64,000 nt of DNA from Eledone cirrhosa (Eukaryota): the NCBI GenBank assembly GCA_964016885.1, contig OZ024749.1, positions 4,588,001 to 4,652,000 of the forward strand. Reading direction: 5' to 3'. The stretch's first letter is position 1, and the number at the start of each line of letters is the position of its first letter. The notes beneath the pieces were generated by a model. That model saw nothing but the letters and a program-made list of their open reading frames with translations. It was not told the DNA's origin and ran no database searches. Below, in pieces: positions 3,076 to 63,900 of this stretch. A program made the translations under genes and the position numbers.

Positions 3076-3745
3076 TACATTATCAGTATGTGAGTATATG
3101 AATGTATATTATATAGTGAAACTAATCTTAATTTGAGTTGCAAATTTTACTTGGGGGACATATTTAGCATACTGGCCCAGAGGCCTGATGATATGATTTA
3201 GTCTTTGTTTGAAGACCTGAGGCAAAATAAGAACTACTAACCGTGATTGAAATTGTATTTTACTGTAATAAACTATAAAATCAACGAGACTTGAAGTTCT
3301 GTCAATACACAGACACACATATAAACATACACACGCATATATATATTTATATATAACATATAATATATATATGGCGTATAATATATATATAATGTATAAT
3401 ATATATATAACGTATAATATATATAATGTATAATATACAAATGTATTGAGTACCTTAATTACTGTGGTTATCCCCGATTGAACCGGACACACAGACACAC
3501 ACACACACACACACATACACACACACACACACTCTCTCTCTCTCTCTCTCTGTATAAATAGATATAACGCTAAACAATGCGAAATGGACTGTAAGATGAG
3601 GTAAAGAAAAAGTAAGTTACCTGGTAATGTTTTGTTGTTGTAGCTGATTTTTATTGTGTCCTAATATTTCAGGCCCAAAAATTTCCTTCTTCAGAGTTTA
3701 AGGAACTTTTAGGTGTTCCACTTTCTTTTCTTTGGGATTTAATAT

Positions 3746-4535: not shown

Positions 4536-4654
4536 ATATGTTGGAATTCCGACAAACCTAAATGTTTATAACTGATATAAAGCACTCAACAGTTTACTGG
4601 ATTAAATATTCCATGATATTAAATAAATGGAAATTATATTTATGAAACAATATT

Positions 4655-4719
4655 TATTTTATTATAAATATTTCAAGGGCAACCAAGCTAACTTTGCTGC
4701 GCTTTCTTCAGATAAAATA
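4655..4719 (-). ncRNA. Type I hammerhead ribozyme (minimal, PLE type)
   Basis: Minus strand: UAUUUUAU-CUGAAGA-stem II-GAAA-UAUUUA-UA-AUAAAAUA. Confidence 0.65.
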
Positions 4720-4998
4720 CAAAGTTTGTTTCATAAATAAAGACGTACCAATGAAAATCATACCTTATCGACCGGAAATTCACTGGATAGTGGAAACATG
4801 TTATGGATTATTCAAAGTTATGTTAACTTTCCCCAGCGTCATTTAAATAAACAGTTGTTTTTTCAATTATTTACACATTCATTTGCATATTCACATATAA
4901 CTTAGAAAAATCCCCAATATGTTTCCACTATCTAGAGAATTTCCGACAGATAAGGTATGATTTTCATGGGTACGTCTTTATTTATGAAACAAACTATG

Positions 4999-5063
4999 TA
5001 TTTTATCTGATGAAAGCGCACCAAGTTTGGGTTGGTTGCCATTGAAATATATATAATAAAATA
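4999..5063 (+). ncRNA. Type I hammerhead ribozyme with palindromic stem III
   Basis: tattttat CTGATGA aagcgca..tgccatt GAAA tatata TA ataaaata; 8-bp stem I. Confidence 0.75.
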
Positions 5064-5284
5064 AATACGGTTTTACAAATATAGTTTCCTTTCATTTAAT
5101 ATCATGGTATATGTAATATATATATTGGAAAATGCGTGAGATCCTTGGTACAGTTAGGTATATTTGCAAAAAAGCAAAAGAATGACTTCACTTTTAGTGT
5201 TAAAAAATTTGATTTAATTTTATATTATAAAATTAATTCAAATTTTTTAACACTCCAATTGAAGTCATTCTTTTCCTTTTTTTT

Positions 5285-5324
<40 letters not shown>

Positions 5325-5327
<3 letters not shown>

Positions 5328-5516
5328 CGAATGAAATGTGGTAAGGAACCAGGTGGACCATTACGCACCAAAGTAGTCAATACTTAGGGTAGTAGAGTGG
5401 GTAATAGGAGCCAGTAAGACCCCGACGGCTGAGCTCAGGCCGTTTCGACGACTAATTCTGGACTAGAATTAGCCGTCGAAACGGCTGAGAGCTCAGCCGT
5501 CGGGGTCTTACTGGTT

Positions 5517-5556
<40 letters not shown>

Positions 5557-5725
5557 CATAGCTCAAGCCGTTTCGACAGCTATTTATGGACTGAAATAGC
5601 TGTCGAAACGGCTTGAGCCCTGCAGTCGGGGTCTTCAACATTTCCCTATTACTCACTTTACTACACAATGAGTACTCTGGTGCGTTATGGTCCACCTGGT
5701 TCCTTACGACACTCCCTTCGTTATT
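5325..5725. mobile_element. Pair of palindromic half-hammerhead mini-elements separated by (TA)n
   Basis: Hairpins 5405-5520 and 5561-5618 containing GAAAC-stem III-GUC-ggggtctt; the outer tails are mutually inverted. Confidence 0.75.
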
Positions 5726-5988: not shown

Positions 5989-6103
5989 GATTCCAGTTCC
6001 TCAGAAGAATAACGTAACAACCAGGAGCTGGACATATAGATGTATTGACGAAGTAAAACACACTTCAACAACATGTGTACCTGTCTTTCCCACGCCAATT
6101 CGG

Positions 6104-6158
6104 ACTGCCTGAAGAAGTCACAGCCAATGATGGCTGTCACCGAAATATATATAGCAGT
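6104..6158 (+). ncRNA. Type I hammerhead ribozyme
   Basis: actgc CTGAAGA agtc-acagcca atga tggctgt-cacc GAAA tatata TA gcagt; stem I actgc/gcagt, palindromic stem III. Confidence 0.8.
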
Positions 6159-6398
6159 ATATCTATAATTTATAATAAACGAAGCCAAATTTTACATATT
6201 TGACTGAAAAAAGGGCTGTTTATTGACGCGGTCGTAGTAAGTGAGAATTCGTCAGAGGCGTTGTGATAAATTAGCAGGTGATACAGTGGTCAGAGAATGG
6301 TGGTAAAAGGGGACAGTAAGTAGGTAACATATTTGCTAGAAAAACCAGTTAGAACACATCTGGTTAACTAAACCACAGGGAGATTGTGACAATATAAT

Positions 6399-6682
6399 AA
6401 TTGTTTCTATTTTAGGCACAAGGCCAGCAAATACTCAGTACATTACTGGTACTTTATTTTATCGACCTCGTTTAGGATGAAAGGCAAAGTTAACCTCGGT
6501 GGGATTTGAACTCAGAAGAGCAAGGGCCATAACTCTATGCGTTAAAGCATAGAGTTACGGCCTTTGCCATTCTGAGTTCAAATCCCGCTGAGGTTAACTT
6601 TGCCTTTCATCCTAAACGGGGCCGATAAAATAAAGTAATACACTGGGTATTTGCTGGCGTTGTGCCAAAAGTAGAAACAATT
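6399..6682. mobile_element. Head-to-head SINE palindrome
   Basis: Minus copy 6399-6546 fused to plus copy 6547-6682, apex aactctatgc-gttaaa-gcatagagtt. Confidence 0.85.
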
Positions 6683-6832
6683 AATTTATCAAATTAATTG
6701 TTTCTACTTCAGACACAAGGCCAGCAGTTACCCAGTGCATTACTGGTACTTTATCAAATTAATACGAGGAAATAATAGACAAAAATATACCTATTTTTTC
6801 TTCAAAGACCCGACTGCACTTTCGCTGAAGCA

Positions 6833-10163: not shown

Positions 10164-12680
10164 TGCTGACGCCAATGGCTGCTCCCCTCATTTTGGGTGT
10201 AGATCTTCTCGTTGAATTTGAATATGTGGCCCTTTAGGGTAGTTTTGATACTAGCCCCTATTGCATGTGCGACCCTTTTTCTTACCCGATCATTGTTTTG
10301 GGGAGTCCGTATAGCTTTGATCCACCCAATCCACCTTCCCATGGGAGTCGTTTTTACCATTGAGGTTATGGTGGGGGGGTCTACCTCTTATGGGTCTACT
10401 AGGGTAGAAACGTCTAAGGTCATGGCTGTCTAGGTAGTCAGTGTCGTAGGTAAGTCTAAGTAGGAGGCCCAGTTCATCTGTGTCGACGTCGCAGAACTCC
10501 ACCTCACTCTCAATGATCAACTCCACACATTTTTCCACAGCAAAATCAATGTTAATGGATGGGTACAGTGATACCACATCCATGCTGCCTATTATGCATT
10601 TGGATAGGGCTCCTGTTTTTGTTGCACTCACTGATTCTGCTGAGGAGGTCCTCTGTACTGTCACATACATCTGGGGACATCTTGACTATTGGGAGTATAA
10701 CCATTGAAAGGAAATAAGGAGATTCTGTAGTTGTTAGCTATATTAGCTCCGCATACGCGTCTTGTTGGTGGTCCTGTTGTCGTGTCGTCGACTGTCTTGT
10801 GGTCTTTGCGGGGCCCATATAAGGGTGGTATGCCATTGTTAGACGCCTGGAAGTTGTTCGCAGTGCGTCTGCTCTGGTTTAAGATGTCAGTCCACATCAT
10901 CAGTTGAGCGTTGAGGATTTTCTCTCTCCCATCATGTGTTTGCTGTGCAATTTCGCTCGTGTTGGTGATGTGGGGTTGCATAGCCTTGATATAGTTCGGC
11001 ATGCTATCTATTGACATCCTACCAGATTTATCCGTGGGTAGACGTACTACCTCACTATCCCTTGTGCGCTGCTTGAGGCTAACCAAGCCTTCTACAGGTT
11101 TCCTCCCAAGTTGTTGGGCCTCTGGTCTGCTCTGTCTTTTAGTATGCCGGTCTAGTATTTGTTTAATCTTATTTCTAGCTATGGTGAACTGTGCCTCTGC
11201 CTCGTCATCTATTTGTTGTGGTATGCAAACTCTTTTATTAAAGGGTAACCTCGTAGGATAGATATTACCCATCTTATATGTTTTGTCAGCTGGGTTGAAA
11301 AATAGTTTCTCTAAGGGTTGTCATTATATCTATCGTAATAGTTGTGTGTGTTGCTATTATTGTTATCATGGTGGTTGTTGTTGTTCCTCTCATTAGCATT
11401 ATTATTATTGTTATGATTGCTAGATGTATTTTTGTTTACTTCACCGTTATTGTTGTTGTTACTGTTATTTCTACCATTGTGGTTGTTACTTTTATTATGT
11501 TTCTTGTTTTTGTTGTGTCTATCATTAATGTTGCTACATGTATTATTTCCATTATTACCACTGTGGTTATTGTTGTTGTTGTTCGTATTGTTACTGTTAG
11601 TACTACTGTGGTCGCTGCTGTTGTGTCTGTGGTTAATGTTTCTATTATTATTATTATTATTGTGGTTGTTGTTGTTGCTCTGTCCATCGTTAGTATGATT
11701 ACCATTATTACTATTTCTCACTCTCCTGCTATTGTTATTGTTATGGCTGTTATTTCTATACTCAGAGTTATTGTTTATATTACTACTACCGTTATTATTG
11801 TTGTTGTTTACTTTTGCATTCCAACGTATTTTTGTGAAACACTTTTCCAGCTCCGTTTTGCACTCAATAGGGTTATCTTTTTGTAGATGGCAAATTTTGG
11901 TGGTAGCTGCAGGATTTGTTGTTCTTGTTCACTGATTAAAGTGTTCCCATAAATATTTACTGTGTGGTCATTGGTAAATTTTTCCGGTAATTTTACATCA
12001 GTCATACGGATATTGTTGATGTTATCTGGGTATTTTTGAGAATATTCTAATTTCCTTTCTTGTAGTTTTTTCTTATTGAAATGACTATTGCATTCGTTTC
12101 GGGCGTATTTAATTTCACGTCGGATGACGCTCATGAAGTTATCCATTTCGTTTAGTGTGGTGAGATTTTGGATTTCCTTACCCTTAATGCGTTTCTGTCT
12201 GTAAAGTTCGTTGACTTTTGTGTATGCTGTTCTTTTCATATTAATTGTTATTGTGTGTTTTAGTCGTTCAGCTTGTGTTTTGTTCAATATTAAATTATTT
12301 ACTTGTTTTGATATGTTTGTTGTGTATATTTTGGAGGAAACACAGTGTTTTAAGTAGCGGATTTGTTCTGTTGTTATTGTAGTTTTTATATAACAGAAAA
12401 CAGTGTCTTTCAATAACCTTTCAGCTTGGCACAAGCTAATGCCATAACGGCGATGAATTAGTTTTGCGAGGTTTTTTATATGAAATCGTGTGTCGAACAA
12501 ATATTGTTATACTTGGGGAGGGTCGTATTTGAGTAATATTGCCAGAATTAATAACAGAACACACTCACTGTTTGGTTGGTTTTCGCTTTTCGCTTCTGTG
12601 TCTTTTATATCGGTAATCTAATTTATTCGGTCCTCAATGTTGCCATTGACTGACCGGCGGTCAAAATTAATAATCTGGTG

Positions 12681-33780: not shown

Positions 33781-33932
33781 AACGCACCAGACTACTCAGT
33801 ACTTACGGTAGTAGAGTGGCTAATAGGAAAAAGTTTAACCCCGTCGGCAGAGCTCAAGCCGTTTCGACGGCTATTTCTAGAAATATCCGTCGAAACGGCT
33901 TGAACTCTGCCGTCGGGGTTTAAATTTTCCTA
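33781..33932 (-). mobile_element. Third palindromic half-hammerhead mini-element
   Basis: Hairpin 33824-33932 homologous to 5405-5520; tail acgcaccagactactcagtacttacggtagtagagtgg matches 5363-5400. Confidence 0.8.
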
Positions 33933-35785: not shown

Positions 35786-35845
35786 ATAATAATAATAATA
35801 ATAATAATAATATTAATATTAATATTAATAATAATAATAATAATA

Positions 35846-36830
35846 ATTGTTTCTACTTTTGGCACAAAGCCAGCTATTATCCAGTGCATTACTGGTACTT
35901 TACTCTATCGACCCCGTAAGGATGAAAGGCAAAGTTAACCTCGGCGGGATTTGAATAATAATAATAATACTGCTGCTGCTGCTACTGCCACAATAACTAC
36001 TATGCCACTACTACTTCTGCTACTGATACTACAACTAATAATAATACTACTACAATTACTACTGCTATTATAATTTGGCAGTATCGGTAGAGGGTCGGAC
36101 ATGCTTTCTAGCATAGAGTTACGTCCCTTTATTGTCTGAGTTCAAATCCCACCGAGGTTAACTTTGCCTTTCATCAATAGGCGGTCGATAAAATAAAGTA
36201 CCAGTAATGCCCTGTTTAATTGCTGGCCTTGTGCCAGCTAGTAGAAACAAAATTATAATTAGAGCCAATAAAATAATGTACCAGTCACACGCTAGGGTCG
36301 ATATAACCGACTTTCACACTCCTCTTAAACTGCTGGCATTGCCCCTATAGTAGAAATTATTATTATAGGGTCGAACGCCATGCTTTGACGTATAGAGTTA
36401 CGGCCCTTGCCATTCTGAGTTCAAATCCCGCCAAGGTTAACTTTGCCTTTCATCCTTACGGGGTCGATAAAATAAAGTACCAGTAATGCACTGGGTAATT
36501 GCTGGCCTTGTGCCTAACGTAGAAACAATTATTATTAGTACCAGTTAGGGCGCTGGAGTGGAAATATTGGTATAGGGTCGGACGCCATGCTTTACGGCAT
36601 AGAGTTACGTCCCTTTATGATCTGAGTTCAAATGCCGCCGAGGTTAACTTTTCCTCTCATCCTTACGGAGTCGATAACATAAAGTACCAGTCACACACTG
36701 GGGTCGCTTTCATCGACTTTTCCCTCCCCCCACAACATTGCTGGCCTTGTGCCTATATAAGAAACCATTATTATTAGTACCAGTAATGTACTGGTTAATT
36801 GCTGGCCTTGTGCCAAAAGTCGAAACAATT
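35846..36830. mobile_element. Cluster of at least five SINE copies/fragments
   Basis: Minus copy 35846-35955; plus copies ~36073-36252, 36366-36530, 36572-36775 and tail fragments. Confidence 0.85.
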
Positions 36831-37109
36831 ATTATTATTATCATCAACATGATAATTATTATTCGTATCATGGCGGTGAATAATATTGATAATAATGAGA
36901 TATGGGAGGAGGTGGGGGAGGATGGAGGGGGGGATGGTGGGAGTCAAGGAGATGGAGTAGGTCTAGGTGGGGTAAGGGTATGAGGTGGATGAGGAGGGAG
37001 AGAATAAGGAGGAGGAGAGTGATAAGAATAATTATGGTGATGTTAGTGAGGCTTATATTATCATCGTTATTAATGTTGCGATGGCGGTGGGGATTCTTAT
37101 GTTCTTGAT

Positions 37110-42534: not shown

Positions 42535-42542
<8 letters not shown>

Positions 42543-42718
42543 ATACTTGGGGAGGGTTGTAATAATATTGCCATAATTAATAACAGAAGACACTCACTGT
42601 TTATTCTGTCATTAATTCTGGCAATATTATTACAACAATATGACCCTCCCCAAGTATAACAATATTTTTTCGACACACGATTTCATATTAAAAAGCTCGC
42701 AAAACAAATTCGTCGCCG

Positions 42719-45457: not shown

Positions 45458-46651
45458 GATGTATCTCTTAATCTTGACACTGGCCTATATTACCCTTACC
45501 ATAAAAACAATGAGAATCTTAATTATGTTAACTTTAAATCTAACCATCCTACCAATATCAAGAATGCTATAGTTAATAATATTGGAAATAGAATATCTAA
45601 CATATCTTCTAATAAAAACATCTTTGATGCTAACGCCAATTACTATAATAACGCACTTTCTAAAGCCGGCTATCCAGATAAAATCAAATATAATAAAGAA
45701 ACAAATTCTAGGAAAACTTACAGTAGAATATTTAATCATAACCATTCCAATAATTTTAATAAAAGACCTAGATACAAAAACATAATCTGGTATAATGCTC
45801 CTTTCTCCATCTCTATTAATAACAATATTCCTAAATTATTTTTTAGTGCCTTAAATAAATGCTTCCCTCCCTCACATATCTATAGTAAAATATTTAACAA
45901 ACACACCATCAAATTTTCGTATTCTACATCCTCCAATATCTCCAACATCATCTCTAAACACAACAACAAAATATTAAATACTAAATCTCTTCCTTCCAAT
46001 ATTGAATTTCATAATAACAGTAATAGTACTCCTGACGTCATTATAAACCCTAGGCTAACTTCTGTAAACCCAAATGCAACGTCAAACACAACTTCGCTAA
46101 ATGTTCATAATCCAACTCTAAATCAAGAAACTATTATTCCTATTATTCCTATCGCAAACAACTTCTCCAATCCAATTCCTTCTATAGATAACACTAGATC
46201 ACTCATTAATAATCTCTCTAATTGCAACTGCCGCATTAAAAATAAATGTCCTCTCAACAACCATTGCCTCGATAAAAACTTAATTTATGAATGTAAAATT
46301 ATAACTAGCACCAATTCCTTCACCTATTTTGGCTCCACTTCCACCTCTTTTAAAGCTCGTCTCTATAATCATCATTCATCTTTCAAATACAAACTTAAAA
46401 GAACTAACACTGCTCTCTCAGAACTCATATGGTCCTTAAAAGACAAAAACATTAAATATAACATCTTTTGGAAACAGATTTCTTCTGCATCCTCATACTT
46501 GAACAGCTCTCTATCTAAAATCTGTAATCTCTGCCTAAATGAAAAATTTACCATTATCTCTAACCTAGAATCCATAATAAATAGACGCTCAGATTTGTTT
46601 TCTATCTGCCTGCATAAATTCCATAGAACTTTTCACAAAGTATACAGTTAA
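45458..46651 (+). CDS. Start-less open frame (397 codons): PLE RT thumb, CxCx5Cx5C linker and GIY-YIG endonuclease
   Basis: Manual translation: DVSLNLDTGLYYPYHK..SNHP..IIWYNAPFS..FNKHTIKFSYS..CNCRIKNKCPLNNHC..LIY..YFGST..FKARLYNH..LSELIW..CNLCLNEK..INRRSDLFSICLH; no stop and no Met, hence absent from the ORF track. Confidence 0.88.
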   Translation, partial: DVSLNLDTGLYYPYHKNNENLNYVNFKSNHPTNIKNAIVNNIGNRISNISSNKNIFDANANYYNNALSKAGYPDKIKYNKETNSRKTYSRIFNHNHSNNFNKRPRYKNIIWYNAPFSISINNNIPKLFFSALNKCFPPSHIYSKIFNKHTIKFSYSTSSNISNIISKHNNKILNTKSLPSNIEFHNNSNSTPDVIINPRLTSVNPNATSNTTSLNVHNPTLNQETIIPIIPIANNFSNPIPSIDNTRSLINNLSNCNCRIKNKCPLNNHCLDKNLIYECKIITSTNSFTYFGSTSTSFKARLYNHHSSFKYKLKRTNTALSELIWSLKDKNIKYNIFWKQISSASSYLNSSLSKICNLCLNEKFTIISNLESIINRRSDLFSICLHKFHRTFHKVYS

Positions 46652-54013: not shown

Positions 54014-54758
54014 GAGAAGTAAGGCTGTTGGTTCACTTTCAATGTCTTAGACTCTTTGTTTTTATTCTTGGTGAGATGCATGTGTGATTACATATTTATC
54101 ATATGTGTGTGTTTGCATGATGGGATTAGTTCTGTAGATATTGGCGAACATATGAATGGTGTGTGGTATGTGAGAGGGAGAATAAGTAATTTGCATAACG
54201 TATGTAGACGGAAAGAAATCTTCATACATTCTCCTCTCGTTTTTTATTTCATTTCTCTAATTTTCTTGGTATACTACATTTCTAACTGTTAAAACATTTA
54301 CTCAGCTATTTGTATTATTATTCATGTTAAAAATATTATTAATATATTAGTTTCTATTAGTTTTTACAGTATTTCTATTTTTATGAATATTAAGTTCTTT
54401 ATTTAGTTTTGCATAAAGTGTTATCGTCTTACCAACTGTATTTTCAAGTTATTTACATTTCCGTATTGGAGATGTCTGACAACGACCGTAAGTATGTTAT
54501 TTATATTTTTTAATGGATTTTGAAGAAAACAGTACAGAGTAGAATGATGGAACATCTTGCTAAATTGATAGAAACGTTCTTTTATATATTTATGTGTGTT
54601 TGTGTGAAAACGTACACACCATCTCACATACACACTCACGCACACACAGACACACACAAACACAAATACACACTCATATATATATATAAGTGTGTGTGTG
54701 TGTGTATAAATAGAGACACAAAGGAGGCTTCGATTCCCAACGGCTAGCGAATTTGAAA

Positions 54759-55024
54759 ATTAGGTAGTAACGTGTGCTTACGCTGTATTTGACTACATAG
54801 AATTAGTCTGTTTGGTGGGATTTAAAAAAAACACATCTGAATGGTAAAAAAGGATGAGTATTGACATACATGGGACACGTGGTCCGACAACCAAATATAT
54901 AGGTACGTGCCCCATGTACCCCAATACTCATCCGTTTTTCCATTAAGAAGTTTTTTTTTAAATCCCAACAAACCGACTAATTATGTGAAGGCAAATACAG
55001 CGTAAGCACATGTTACTTCCAAAT
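54759..55024. mobile_element. Palindromic MITE-like element (~120-bp arms)
   Basis: gtaacgtgtgcttacgctgtatttg...catgggacacgt / acgtgccccatg...caaatacagcgtaagcacatgttac. Confidence 0.7.
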
Positions 55025-55026
55025 TA

Positions 55027-60952: not shown

Positions 60953-63900
60953 CAACCAACAATACCTCCCCACATACCAAAAAATAAGGCATCACCTGGC
61001 CCCTACCGCCTACATCCTCCACACAAAAACCACACGGATTCCCAAGCAACAAATATAGTAATAGAGAAACATCAGCTACAAGATAGGCACTACAACTTTT
61101 CTCCAACCAGGAGAAACCATAGAATCCCCCACACTTACAACCCCCCCCCCCCCACATCTAACATTCCCACACAACAAACCCACAACCATCATTACTTCCA
61201 ACATAGAACCCAAAATACGCAACTACCACACATGTCACATATAAGGAAACCCTAATCTACCCTCCCCCACTAACCACATCCTACTACAACACCAGCAGGA
61301 GACAATACAACCACATGAGACACCCTAACCACTACAGCCACCATAGCTACACACCATATAACAGCAACAGCAGGACTCAATATAACCAGACAAGACAACC
61401 CTACTACAACTACCATCAAATCTACACACCCTACAACAACATCAGCAGGGTTCAATACAACCACACGATACAATCATAAACTCAACAACCACCACAGCTA
61501 CACACCATATTACAACAACAGCAGGAGCCAATACAACTATAAGAGACATCCAAACTTCAACAGCCATCACAACTTCCGTAATCATTTTTTAGACACAGCA
61601 CACAGACACAGGATAACAAGATAACACAAAACCCACAGGAGAACAAAATGCAATAAAAATTGTCAATTTAACCTCTAAAGACCAAATCAACAGACCAAAT
61701 CAACATACTCTCCAAAGGTCTAAAATTTACACCAACTCCACAACAACCAAACTACCCCAAAATGAAGGAAGATATTGCAGAATTCTGTAGAAATCTAAGA
61801 CTCAGCTAGCAACTATACGACAAATACAATGAGGATGACTCAATAGCCAGAAATAGAAGCAACTACAACCCACCAAAAGGCAAGAACAAATTCCTCGATC
61901 AATTCTGCGAACACATTACTAATTACCCATACCACCACCTACACAGACATAAACATACACCAAACCTAAGCAAAAAAGAATGGAATGGTATTAACAGTCT
62001 AAAAAACGACAAAACCCTAACAATCAAAGAGGCAGATAAAAGGAGTGCAGTAGTCCTTATGGAGACAGATTATTACAAGACGCTAGTACTCTCAACTCTA
62101 GAAAACCAAACATATTATGAAAAGGCCCAACACTACACACAACAGAAAATAATGAGAAACCTAAAATCCCTAACAACCCTTTACAAAGAAGGCCTTACAG
62201 ACAAGGAATACAACTATATCACAGTTTCAAAAGCACGGTATCCCAACGACACACAAAATCGAAATAATAGGGAGGGCCTGCAAGCAAGCCGCAAACATTT
62301 ACATCCTGATGACCTTAAATTAAGACCCGTAATTACAGGTACCACATGTGAAACCCACCGCCTAAGCAACTTCCTAGATATTCTGCTTAAACCTTTCCTA
62401 AAACACATAAAAAGCTTCATAAGGGACGACCTTGACATGCTCAACCACCTCCCAACAACTCTCAATAATGAACGTACCCTACTAGTAACCTTTGATGTCA
62501 TCAATTTATTTTCCAATATCCCACACAACCTAGGTATAGCAGCAATACAATTTTGGCTTGAAGATTTGTGTTGGAGGGACTCATATTCATCTTGGAAAAC
62601 AATTTCTTTGAATTCAATGCCAAATACTACAGACAGAAATACGGGACTGCCATAGGCACGAAAGTAGCCCCTCATACGCCAACCGTGTCATGGGATATTT
62701 GGAAACCACTCTCTACCGCAAAGTTCTAGACAAATACGACAACCACTTCTACCAACACATAGAAAAGAACTGGAAGAGATATCTGGACGACTGCTTCATC
62801 TTCTGGCATGAAAAAGTATAGAAAGACTGATTGAGTTTAAAACCCTTCTGAATAGACTCAACACAAACTTACAATTCACAATGGATTACAGCCATGAACA
62901 ACTCCCTTTCCTCGACATCCTCATCAAGAAAACAAACACCAAAATAGAAACAGACATATACTACAAACCGACAGACTCCAAACAATACCTTCCATTCAAC
63001 TCGTGCCACCCTAGACCCACCAAAATGGCAAATCCTTATAACCCAGCCAGAAGAATCTGCACAATAGTTTCAGATACATACACATGCTACACACGACTAG
63101 AAGAATTAAAAAACACACTTATCAGCAGAAACTACCCACCAGCCCTAATCGACAATGGATTCCAACGTGCCCTAAAACTCTACATCCAAGAAATCAGACA
63201 CCCCAAACTCAGGAATGAATCGCAACAGAAAACTCTACTATACATCTCCACACACAAACCCTTCAACAATGAGGCATTCGACACCATCCTCCAGAACATT
63301 CCTTTACTATAAAGAGGACCAAGAATGAACACAATCCTGCAAACACACAACATCATAAAAGCAAAAGACAACCTAAATCCATAAAAAAACATCCTCACAC
63401 AAGCCAAAATCCAACAAACTCTCACAATGAACCCTACAGTAACAAAATGCGGAAGGCCCAACTGTGGCATATGCATAAATCTAATAGAAGGTTCAACATT
63501 CCATTTTAAACAAGGGCAACATTTCACAGTTAAACACAACTTTACATGTGCATCTGAAAACCTAATCTATGTTTTGACCTGCTCAGGTTGTCAAGAGCAC
63601 TACATAGGACAGACAGAAAACAGCCTCCAACAACGTATGACTGTCCATAAATCACAAATCAAAACACAAGAATATAGAAAGATTGCATTTAGTGAACATA
63701 TCGCCAATTCTGCACCCAACCAATATCCAAACTTTAAATTTTTCCCCATTTACAAATTCATAAACAACGCTACTTTCATCCATCGTACCAATGAGGAAAC
63801 GTATTTCATTAACAAATTCCAATCTCTACTTAATGCACTAAACTTCGGACTAAACTAAAACTGGAACGAACAATCAAGCATTTACAAGAGTTACCTACCT

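What the first reader, a model, noticed from the sequence alone, without database searches (positions are those of the whole stretch)
5325..5725. Recurrent 'half-hammerhead' palindromes folded back at stem II (also 33781-33932)
Seen: three related hairpins (5405-5520, 5561-5618, 33824-33932) whose arms read cgtc-GAAAC-ggc(tga gagc tca)gcc-GUC-ggggt, i.e. stem II 3' strand, A-rich core, stem III, cleavage triplet and stem I 3' strand, with no CUGANGA half. The apex falls at the same place in all three, two share the loop ggact in the same orientation, and two end at ccta+(TA)n on the short side with a pLTR-like tail on the other. Inference: either cDNA repeatedly snaps back on the HHR stem II, or a ~150-200 bp palindromic family propagates as such, possibly as a substrate cleaved in trans by the parent PLE ribozyme. 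I do not know of a description of such an element.
Basis: partly seen in the sequence, partly recalled or inferred. Interest (0 to 1): 0.75.

Follow-up and report, generated by a model that had tools for sequence, protein, structure and literature searches.

The report
Penelope stubs marking a transcript start
These hairpins are three of tens of thousands of mirror-image stubs of a Penelope-type jumping gene whose long copies carry the whole ribozyme motif; both halves stop at the same spot inside that motif, likely because the enzyme ran off the front end of the element's own message, which would make the stubs a DNA record of where its transcription starts.

Summary
The three hairpins are real. 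They are short insertions of a Hydra-clade Penelope-like element (PLE), roughly 50,000-120,000 insertions in this animal genome. I found the parent: pLTR-ORF-pLTR copies whose hammerhead motif is complete, as a U3-A8 core variant with a long stem II. Each stub is two head-to-head arms, one with the 78-nt tail and one without (206 of 210). Junctions differ copy to copy (46 distinct in 48) and either arm can be the longer. That argues against snap-back on stem II, self-propagation as a unit and a DNA MITE; it fits two cDNAs primed on the two ends of one break. New here: arm 5' ends peak at an initiator-like motif in the hammerhead's loop and drop sharply upstream, with a modest excess of a non-templated G, as cap copying would give (22 of 46 vs 20 of 87). 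Likely the enzyme starts inside the mRNA's 5' end and runs off at the cap. No RNA was seen. The scan noted the two-armed PLE footprint before on other DNA of this genome; my look-ups showed no note on the start-site reading.

The parts
5326..5404 (-). Copy A: 78-nt PLE tail (stretch between the two fixed 3' end sites), ending in (TA)n
   Evidence: Same end in 30 of 30 loci; in full-length copies the tail runs on into the 5' UTR and ORF
5405..5465 (-). Copy A: tailed arm; 3' half of the hammerhead; its 5' end lies at about -1 of the candidate start site (+1 = 5464 on the minus strand)
   Evidence: Arm plus tail 137 of 143 identical to long copy L272
5466..5520 (+). Copy A: tail-less arm (GAAAC 5478-5482, cleavage triplet 5499-5501, stem I strand 5502-5506), ending at the second fixed end site plus (TA)n
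   Evidence: 55 of 56 identical to L272
5555..5592 (-). Copy B: tail-less arm, outer part missing; reaches +1 of the candidate start site
   Evidence: 37 of 42 identical to L272
5593..5722 (+). Copy B: tailed arm plus tail, another and older subfamily; starts at about +7
   Evidence: 112 of 130 identical to L272; relatives
33781..33878 (-). Copy C: tailed arm with a shortened tail that ends at an internal look-alike of the normal tail end
   Evidence: 88 of 103 identical to L272
33879..33932 (+). Copy C: tail-less arm; both arms start at about +3 and meet in a 4-nt self-complementary junction
   Evidence: 49 of 58 identical to L272

Best explanation
The hairpins are short head-to-head insertions of a Hydra-clade Penelope-like retrotransposon whose long copies carry a complete U3-A8 hammerhead motif, and they likely arise when the element's enzyme extends both ends of a cut in (TA)n from two fixed internal sites near the 5' end of its mRNA and both cDNAs likely run off the capped 5' end, which would lie in the hammerhead's loop. 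Shown here: the parent, the two fixed 3' ends, one tailed and one tail-less arm per insertion, independent junctions, a sharp peak of arm 5' ends at an initiator-like motif, and a modest G excess there. Inferred: two-ended priming (from genome anatomy plus the in vitro work on another PLE), host end-joining of the two cDNAs, and that the boundary is a capped transcription start. On this reading the 'half-hammerhead' is a by-product: the mRNA would begin between the two core halves, so only read-through into a second repeat gives long copies and a whole ribozyme.
For: Parent: 30 of 30 loci from an upstream-only query continue into the arm. pLTR-ORF-pLTR units L276 and L279 encode RT and C-terminal GIY-YIG motifs. 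Core read in 99 long arms: U3/A8 54, C3/A8 44, A/A 1; position 7 free (G 51, A 38, U 5, C 5). One long copy folds as the three-way junction by itself (L243, z -3.5). Two cDNAs: 206 of 210 palindromes have exactly one tail (sampling favoured at least one tail); tailed arm longer 20, tail-less longer 19, equal 9 of 48, and 46 distinct junctions, some with local templated repeats; tail-less arm far longer in L173-L176. Same template kind for both arms: diagnostic 8-mer identical in 137 of 210 vs 33 expected; 3.8 vs 9.0 differences per 55 nt within vs between copies, but 2.9 vs 3.2 inside one subfamily. Boundary: of 301 arms chosen without regard to what lies upstream, 179 start at +1 to +7 (peak +1: 51, +2: 46), 59 at -1 to -18, 22 run on, 41 start inside stem II or are degenerate. 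Held-out set of 135: 93, 18, 6, 18. Same peak in three sequence groups, including the old one whose long copy has a different loop. Non-templated G before +1: 13 of 33 vs 10 of 58 elsewhere (p 0.025); held-out 9 of 13 vs 10 of 29 (one-sided p 0.039). PMC11167929 (main text parts 1-2 of 4): a PLE cuts and extends both strands and starts at two internal sites that bound the tail. PMC11702581 (passages): an extra G marks cap copying in L1 insertions. PMC2377424 and PMC8557442 (passages): PLE start sites lie in the pLTR.
Against: No RNA was seen; the start site rests on DNA junctions alone. The G excess is modest: against boundaries whose parent base is also T it is 22 of 46 vs 9 of 35, p 0.064, and G before +1 is not the majority in the pooled set. 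More arms start at +2 to +7 than at +1, which needs trimming to explain. The initiator-like motif is short, AT-rich, and compared only with the Drosophila consensus; a TATA-like stretch about 30 nt upstream overlaps stem II and is poor in two subfamilies. Two of three long copies did not fold as a hammerhead at minimum energy, and stem covariation does not beat shuffles (27-30 of 500). Long copies exist in the thousands (1652 and 2290 first-look candidates) and need a longer template. Samples come from top-40 search lists plus 0.8 Mb of evenly spaced stretches, not from a full count.
Confidence: 0.6

Rival explanations
1. Same parent and same two-ended priming, but the boundary is a strong stop or an RNA cut on a longer template: the enzyme stalls in the hairpin that caps stem II, or a nuclease opens the loop.
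For: The boundary lies in the 3' strand of a distal hairpin predicted in all three long copies folded. The G signal is weak under the strict control.
Against: The enzyme has already passed stems III and II. The peak is several nt inside the hairpin strand, not at its base. The old subfamily has a different loop in its one long copy (L297) but the same motif and peak. A stall gives no extra G.
Confidence: 0.27
2. The palindromic stubs are themselves a non-autonomous family: read-through transcripts of stubs are copied again, and the loop is rebuilt or flipped at each round.
For: Stubs outnumber long copies about ten to one; both arms share subfamily marks; a few loops recur (up to 9 of 166).
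Against: Long copies were found for every subfamily sampled. Junctions are mostly unique (111 distinct in 166). Some arms reach 15-28 nt into the parent's loop. The bulged hairpin behind the tail end lies outside the stub, so a stub RNA would lack it.
Confidence: 0.07
3. One cDNA snaps back on itself at stem II, or self-primes on an antisense template as proposed for rotifer PLE palindromes, and copies itself.
For: Arms are near-perfect mirror images; PMC3846280 (passages) reads junction palindromes as self-priming.
Against: The tail-less arm holds sequence that the tailed arm lacks in 19 of 48 and is kilobases longer in L173-L176. The inverted arm copies the 3' strand of stem II and never shows the parent's own 5' strand in the stubs viewed. 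Some arms are joined to other families or directly to (TA)n.
Confidence: 0.04
4. An ordinary DNA MITE, or a selected half-ribozyme that the parent ribozyme cleaves in trans.
For: Fixed ends, TA flanks and high copy number resemble a MITE; GAAAC, stem III and GUC are kept in most copies.
Against: The inverted repeat is not terminal: a 78-nt tail lies outside it. The sequence is the 3' end of an RT-encoding element. In a stub RNA the half-ribozyme is paired in a perfect duplex. One large subfamily has a C3/A8 mismatch even in long copies.
Confidence: 0.02

Closest known systems
Hydra clade of C-terminal EN+ Penelope-like elements (Craig et al. 2021, PMC8557442; passages and section 20 read)
   Same: DKT, RWR (paper: RWK), CxCX5C linker, no CCHH, CxxC and CxH in the endonuclease, (TA)n targets, hammerhead in the pLTR, inverted 5'-truncated copy and optional tail.
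   Different: Tail of 78 nt (the paper gives 30-40 for PLEs generally); unit about 3.6 kb with a long 3' UTR; U3-A8 core with long stem II; most insertions are ~195-bp stubs with a fixed inner boundary.
Poseidon_Ac in vitro mechanism (Frangieh et al. 2024, PMC11167929; parts 1-2 of 4 and passages read)
   Same: Both target strands cut and extended; two internal start sites bounding the tail; uncleaved RNA used as template.
   Different: Other clade. In what I read, the paper does not treat short head-to-head stubs or run-off at the mRNA 5' end.
PLE hammerheads (Cervera and de la Pena 2014, PMC4209133; parts 1-2 of 4 read)
   Same: Type I motif in the pLTR; U3-A8 covariation described; motif pairs on opposite strands 100-700 bp apart noted as truncated PLEs.
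   Different: Here both motifs are cut in half at one place, and one subfamily has C3 with A8.
Rotifer Penelope elements with inverted pLTRs and junction palindromes (PMC3846280; passages read)
   Same: Head-to-head pLTRs, tail on one side, TATA/Inr-like motifs in the pLTR.
   Different: That paper favours self-priming; the arm-length data here favour two cDNAs.
Animal non-LTR retrozymes (bioRxiv 10.64898/2026.07.22.740005; part 1 of 5 read)
   Same: PLE-derived, hammerhead-related, non-coding, high copy.
   Different: No tandem monomers, no complete ribozyme in the stub, ends unrelated to the cleavage site.

Membership tests
EN+ Penelope-like element (parent) | Single ORF with PLE-type RT and C-terminal GIY-YIG endonuclease | tested here: met
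   ORF pieces in L276 and L279 with RT motifs and AYIG; Pfam GIY-YIG E 0.0047, under the curated cut-off; 1757 relatives of about 700 aa, none with an informative name among the 120 listed. All copies seen are interrupted.
EN+ Penelope-like element (parent) | pLTR-ORF-pLTR partial tandem, inverted 5' copy, optional tail | tested here: met
   L276, L279; inverted pairs L173-L176, L273-L275, L278, L280
Hydra clade | DKT motif, RWK-type motif, CxCX5C linker, no CCHH, CxxC and CxH motifs | tested here: met
   Read by eye in translations against the description; RWR in place of RWK
Hydra clade | Placement in the RT phylogeny | not tested
   No reference set fetched; the paper's supplements were not opened
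Hydra clade | Insertion into (TA)n | tested here: met
   30 of 30; at least 194 of 217 tail-end hits, duplicates included
Type I hammerhead (long copies) | Core 3-9 with a 3-8 pair, G10.1-C11.1, GAAA, NUH triplet, stems I-III | tested here: met
   U3/A8 in 54 of 99 long arms; 93.6% of cells paired in 12 copies. Not met in the C3/A8 subfamily (44 of 99). Rfam finds no hammerhead.
Type I hammerhead (long copies) | Self-cleavage | not testable with these tools
   Needs in vitro transcription
Type I hammerhead (the stubs) | Complete catalytic core | tested here: not met
   5' half absent in all three window copies
Non-LTR retrozyme | Tandem monomers each with a complete hammerhead | tested here: not met
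   Single head-to-head pairs
DNA MITE | Terminal inverted repeats at both ends, constant interior | tested here: not met
   Tail outside the repeat; interior varies per copy
DNA MITE | Target-site duplication | tested here: inconclusive
   Cannot be read inside (TA)n
Capped Pol II start site (the boundary) | Extra G at full-length cDNA junctions; initiator motif | tested here: inconclusive
   Pooled 22 of 46 vs 20 of 87, p 0.006; strict control p 0.064; motif differs from the Drosophila Inr hexamer at 1-2 places

The most novel reading that the evidence does not exclude
The default product of this PLE's retrotransposition is a stub: both start sites lie near the mRNA's 5' end, so a unit-length capped message yields two short cDNAs that end at the cap and are joined head to head. 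The promoter fires inside the hammerhead's own loop, splitting the ribozyme so that it is whole only in the 3' repeat or in read-through RNA. If general, the apex of each PLE mini-palindrome family maps that family's transcription start from DNA alone, and full-length copies can come only from tandem or circular templates.
Probability: 0.45. Interest if true: 0.65.

Novelty: new variant of a known kind. Interest (0 to 1): 0.45.

Why it matters
How PLEs make their tandem and inverted insertions, and what their hammerhead is for, are open questions (stated in PMC8557442 and PMC11167929). This family gives hundreds of countable junctions that separate two-ended priming from fold-back, and one precise prediction: a capped 5' end at a named base inside the ribozyme loop. 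If true it explains why solo, inverted pLTR stubs swamp full-length copies and why active PLEs need a partial tandem. In practice such stubs look like MITEs or miRNA hairpins (weak Rfam miRNA hits) and may be mis-annotated.

Tried and rejected
Pattern search for a CUGANGA core within about 30 nt of the arm: 62 hits genome-wide; none of the 30 viewed was a parent, because the real core is U3-A8 and lies further away. Queries with near-consensus arms returned nothing, as the tool skips very common words. A core lacking position 7 (C3-G8 covarying with U3-A8) was considered and dropped when copies with U3 and G7 appeared. A 3' splice site at the boundary was rejected: 97 of 301 arms keep the AG or its G. 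Ends at the ribozyme cleavage site: not seen. A tRNA-type SINE head: no proper B box (by eye). Sequencing runs: no RNA holder listed. The three contig runs, one sample and possibly the assembly's own, show a fall of more than tenfold upstream of the boundary and about 500-fold beyond the tail, but depth is no copy number, and the fine-scale lay was swamped by edge effects. Covariation in the hammerhead stems did not beat shuffles. One search had a two-base offset; the arm distance was faulty. No exact genome-wide count of junction types was obtained; all counts are samples. No paper on the C3/A8 mismatch was found; that it impairs cleavage is recalled. Searches for a published description of such stubs or of the start-site reading showed none in their listings; no supplements were opened and many journals are not covered.

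Full report
Observation. The three hairpins are present at 5405-5520, 5555-5630 and 33824-33932, fold with z-scores of -18.2, -10.0 and -11.7 and align with one another. They are the only members that blastn finds in the window. Each arm holds the 3' half of a type I hammerhead. Copies A and B point in opposite directions, so the loop they share sits in the tailed arm of A and in the tail-less arm of B. Rfam gives only sub-threshold miRNA-like hits among the 150 rows shown.

A large family. The window lies in a 3.0-Gb animal genome. Copy A gave 4109 first-look candidates, 40 scored. The 30 loci fetched all start and end at the same bases inside (TA)n, with a 78-nt tail outside a palindrome of about 117 nt. 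In 80 evenly spaced stretches (799,800 bases) a profile found 21 clusters (two of them are one long palindrome), about 79,000 genome-wide, 95% range 49,000-120,000.

The parent. Two of the sampled arms continued into a shared upstream sequence. An upstream-only query gave 1652 candidates, and 30 of 30 loci ran on into the arm. Further upstream lie a long 3' UTR and an ORF with RT and GIY-YIG motifs. L276 and L279 are pLTR-ORF-pLTR units in which the tail continues into a 5' UTR and the ORF start. Motifs match the Hydra clade as described in PMC8557442: DKT, RWR, CxCX5C, no CCHH. I built no tree. Long copies were also found for the subfamily of copy A (4 of 30 loci), a second subfamily (30 loci), the old subfamily (L297), a relative of copy B (L323) and relatives of copy C.

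The hammerhead. In long copies the missing half is there: a stem I strand, a 7-nt core, and a long stem II closed by a loop of about 30 nt. In 99 distinct long arms positions 3 and 8 are U/A in 54, C/A in 44 and A/A in 1; position 7 varies freely. U3-A8 is a described PLE variant (PMC4209133). The C3/A8 subfamily lacks the 3-8 pair and is probably impaired (recalled; no paper found), yet it makes the same stubs. One of three long copies folds as the junction unaided; 93.6% of stem cells pair in 12 copies, without significant covariation. Rfam misses the motif.

Two arms, two cDNAs. Of 210 distinct palindromes 206 have exactly one tailed arm, 3 none and 1 two (queries favoured at least one tail). 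In 48 palindromes from two queries that ignored the apex there were 46 distinct junctions; the tailed arm reached further in 20, the tail-less arm in 19, and 9 were equal, by a lenient measure (the other 12 of 60 loci were long or lacked a close partner arm). Several junctions hold short locally templated repeats, as end-joining leaves (inference). In long insertions the tail-less arm can be kilobases longer, e.g. about 2.7 kb against 0.4 kb in L175. Some arms are joined to other PLE families or straight to (TA)n. A fold-back of one cDNA cannot give these. Both arms come from the same subfamily far more often than chance (137 of 210 vs 33) but within a subfamily are about as far apart as separate copies (2.9 vs 3.2 per 55 nt). 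This fits PMC11167929, where a purified PLE protein cuts and extends both strands and starts at two internal RNA sites that bound the tail. The scan's earlier notes reached the same two-armed reading for other families of this genome; they are AI notes, not independent support.

Why the turn is always there. Numbering from the A of a short motif kept in long copies of all subfamilies, 1-2 letters from the Drosophila initiator hexamer: of 301 arms not selected on their upstream side, 51 start at +1, 46 at +2, 82 at +3 to +7, 59 at -1 to -18, 22 run on and 41 start inside stem II or are degenerate (central hits, the long fetched regions and the query copies were left out). A held-out set of 135 repeats this: 22, 25, 46, 18, 6, 18. 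The peak is the same in three sequence groups. The base before a +1 boundary, where the partner arm does not explain it, is G in 13 of 33 against 10 of 58 elsewhere and 9 of 13 against 10 of 29 in the held-out set; pooled p 0.006, but p 0.064 against boundaries whose parent base is also T. An extra G marks cap copying in L1 insertions (PMC11702581), and PLE start sites lie in the pLTR (PMC2377424; PMC8557442). A bulged hairpin follows each of the two 3' end sites (lead from earlier notes). The one behind the tail end folds as described in L276 and L279 and lies outside the stub; the one behind the other site folds in a somewhat different register in L279. So a tailed arm likely needs RNA that spans the pLTR-ORF junction, that is the 5' part of a message.

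Mechanism. Shown: parent, ends, arm pairing, junction variety, boundary peak. Inferred: the 5' pLTR starts a capped mRNA inside the hammerhead loop; the enzyme cuts (TA)n, primes one end at the tail site and the other at the inner site, both cDNAs run off after about 140 and 60 nt, and the host joins them. Long copies need read-through into a second repeat. I put 0.9 on parent plus two cDNAs and about two in three on the boundary being a capped start, so 0.6 overall. The main rival is a stall or cut at the loop hairpin (0.27).

Known and new. Inverted pLTRs, tails, junction palindromes and U3-A8 cores are published (PMC8557442, PMC3846280, PMC4209133). Other PLE families here make similar palindromes with their own turning points. 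I found no description of stubs halved at one place or of run-off at the message's 5' end in the listings of five paper searches or in the scan's notes; supplements were not opened. PMC13282606 (passages) has no hit for palindrome or hairpin. Verdict: a new variant of a known kind, interest 0.45. No RNA evidence was available.

Noticed in passing
L142-L171 and other long copies: A large subfamily has C3 with A8 in nearly all long copies, a broken 3-8 pair, yet it amplified to many copies; the ribozyme seems dispensable for its spread.
   Followed up: partly
L279:3348-3367 with about 3524-3545; L245, L276: In the 5' UTR a downstream segment is predicted to pair with the stem III region, and another with the tail; this would hide the half-hammerhead in the mRNA and may form the enzyme's binding site.
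   Followed up: partly
window 6074-6165: Hammerhead-like motif of another PLE family with a complete CUGAAGA core; weak fold (z -0.3).
   Followed up: no
window 6392-6689 and 35835-36900: Head-to-head palindromes and stacked copies of a repeat with (AAT)n ends that resembles a Deu/Nin-domain SINE (label recalled); a non-PLE element may form the same mirrored insertions.
   Followed up: no
window 4601-5117, 42535-42665, 54758-55025: Further palindromic insertions of other families in or near (TA)n; one search lists about ten such families in fetched loci, one turning just upstream of a complete core.
   Followed up: partly
window 45458-46651 (+), 61810-63858 (+), 10661-12506 (-): Broken PLE-like ORFs (Hydra-like, Neptune-like with a GIY-YIG hit E 9e-8, and a third type; clade labels by eye); an RT fragment of a LINE at 26128-27687.
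   Followed up: no
L032, L042, L052, L031, L054: An arm of this family joined at the usual boundary to an arm of a different PLE family; either two different RNAs primed one break, or nested insertions.
   Followed up: no
L215 and L343: Junctions holding long T/A homopolymer runs between the arms.
   Followed up: no
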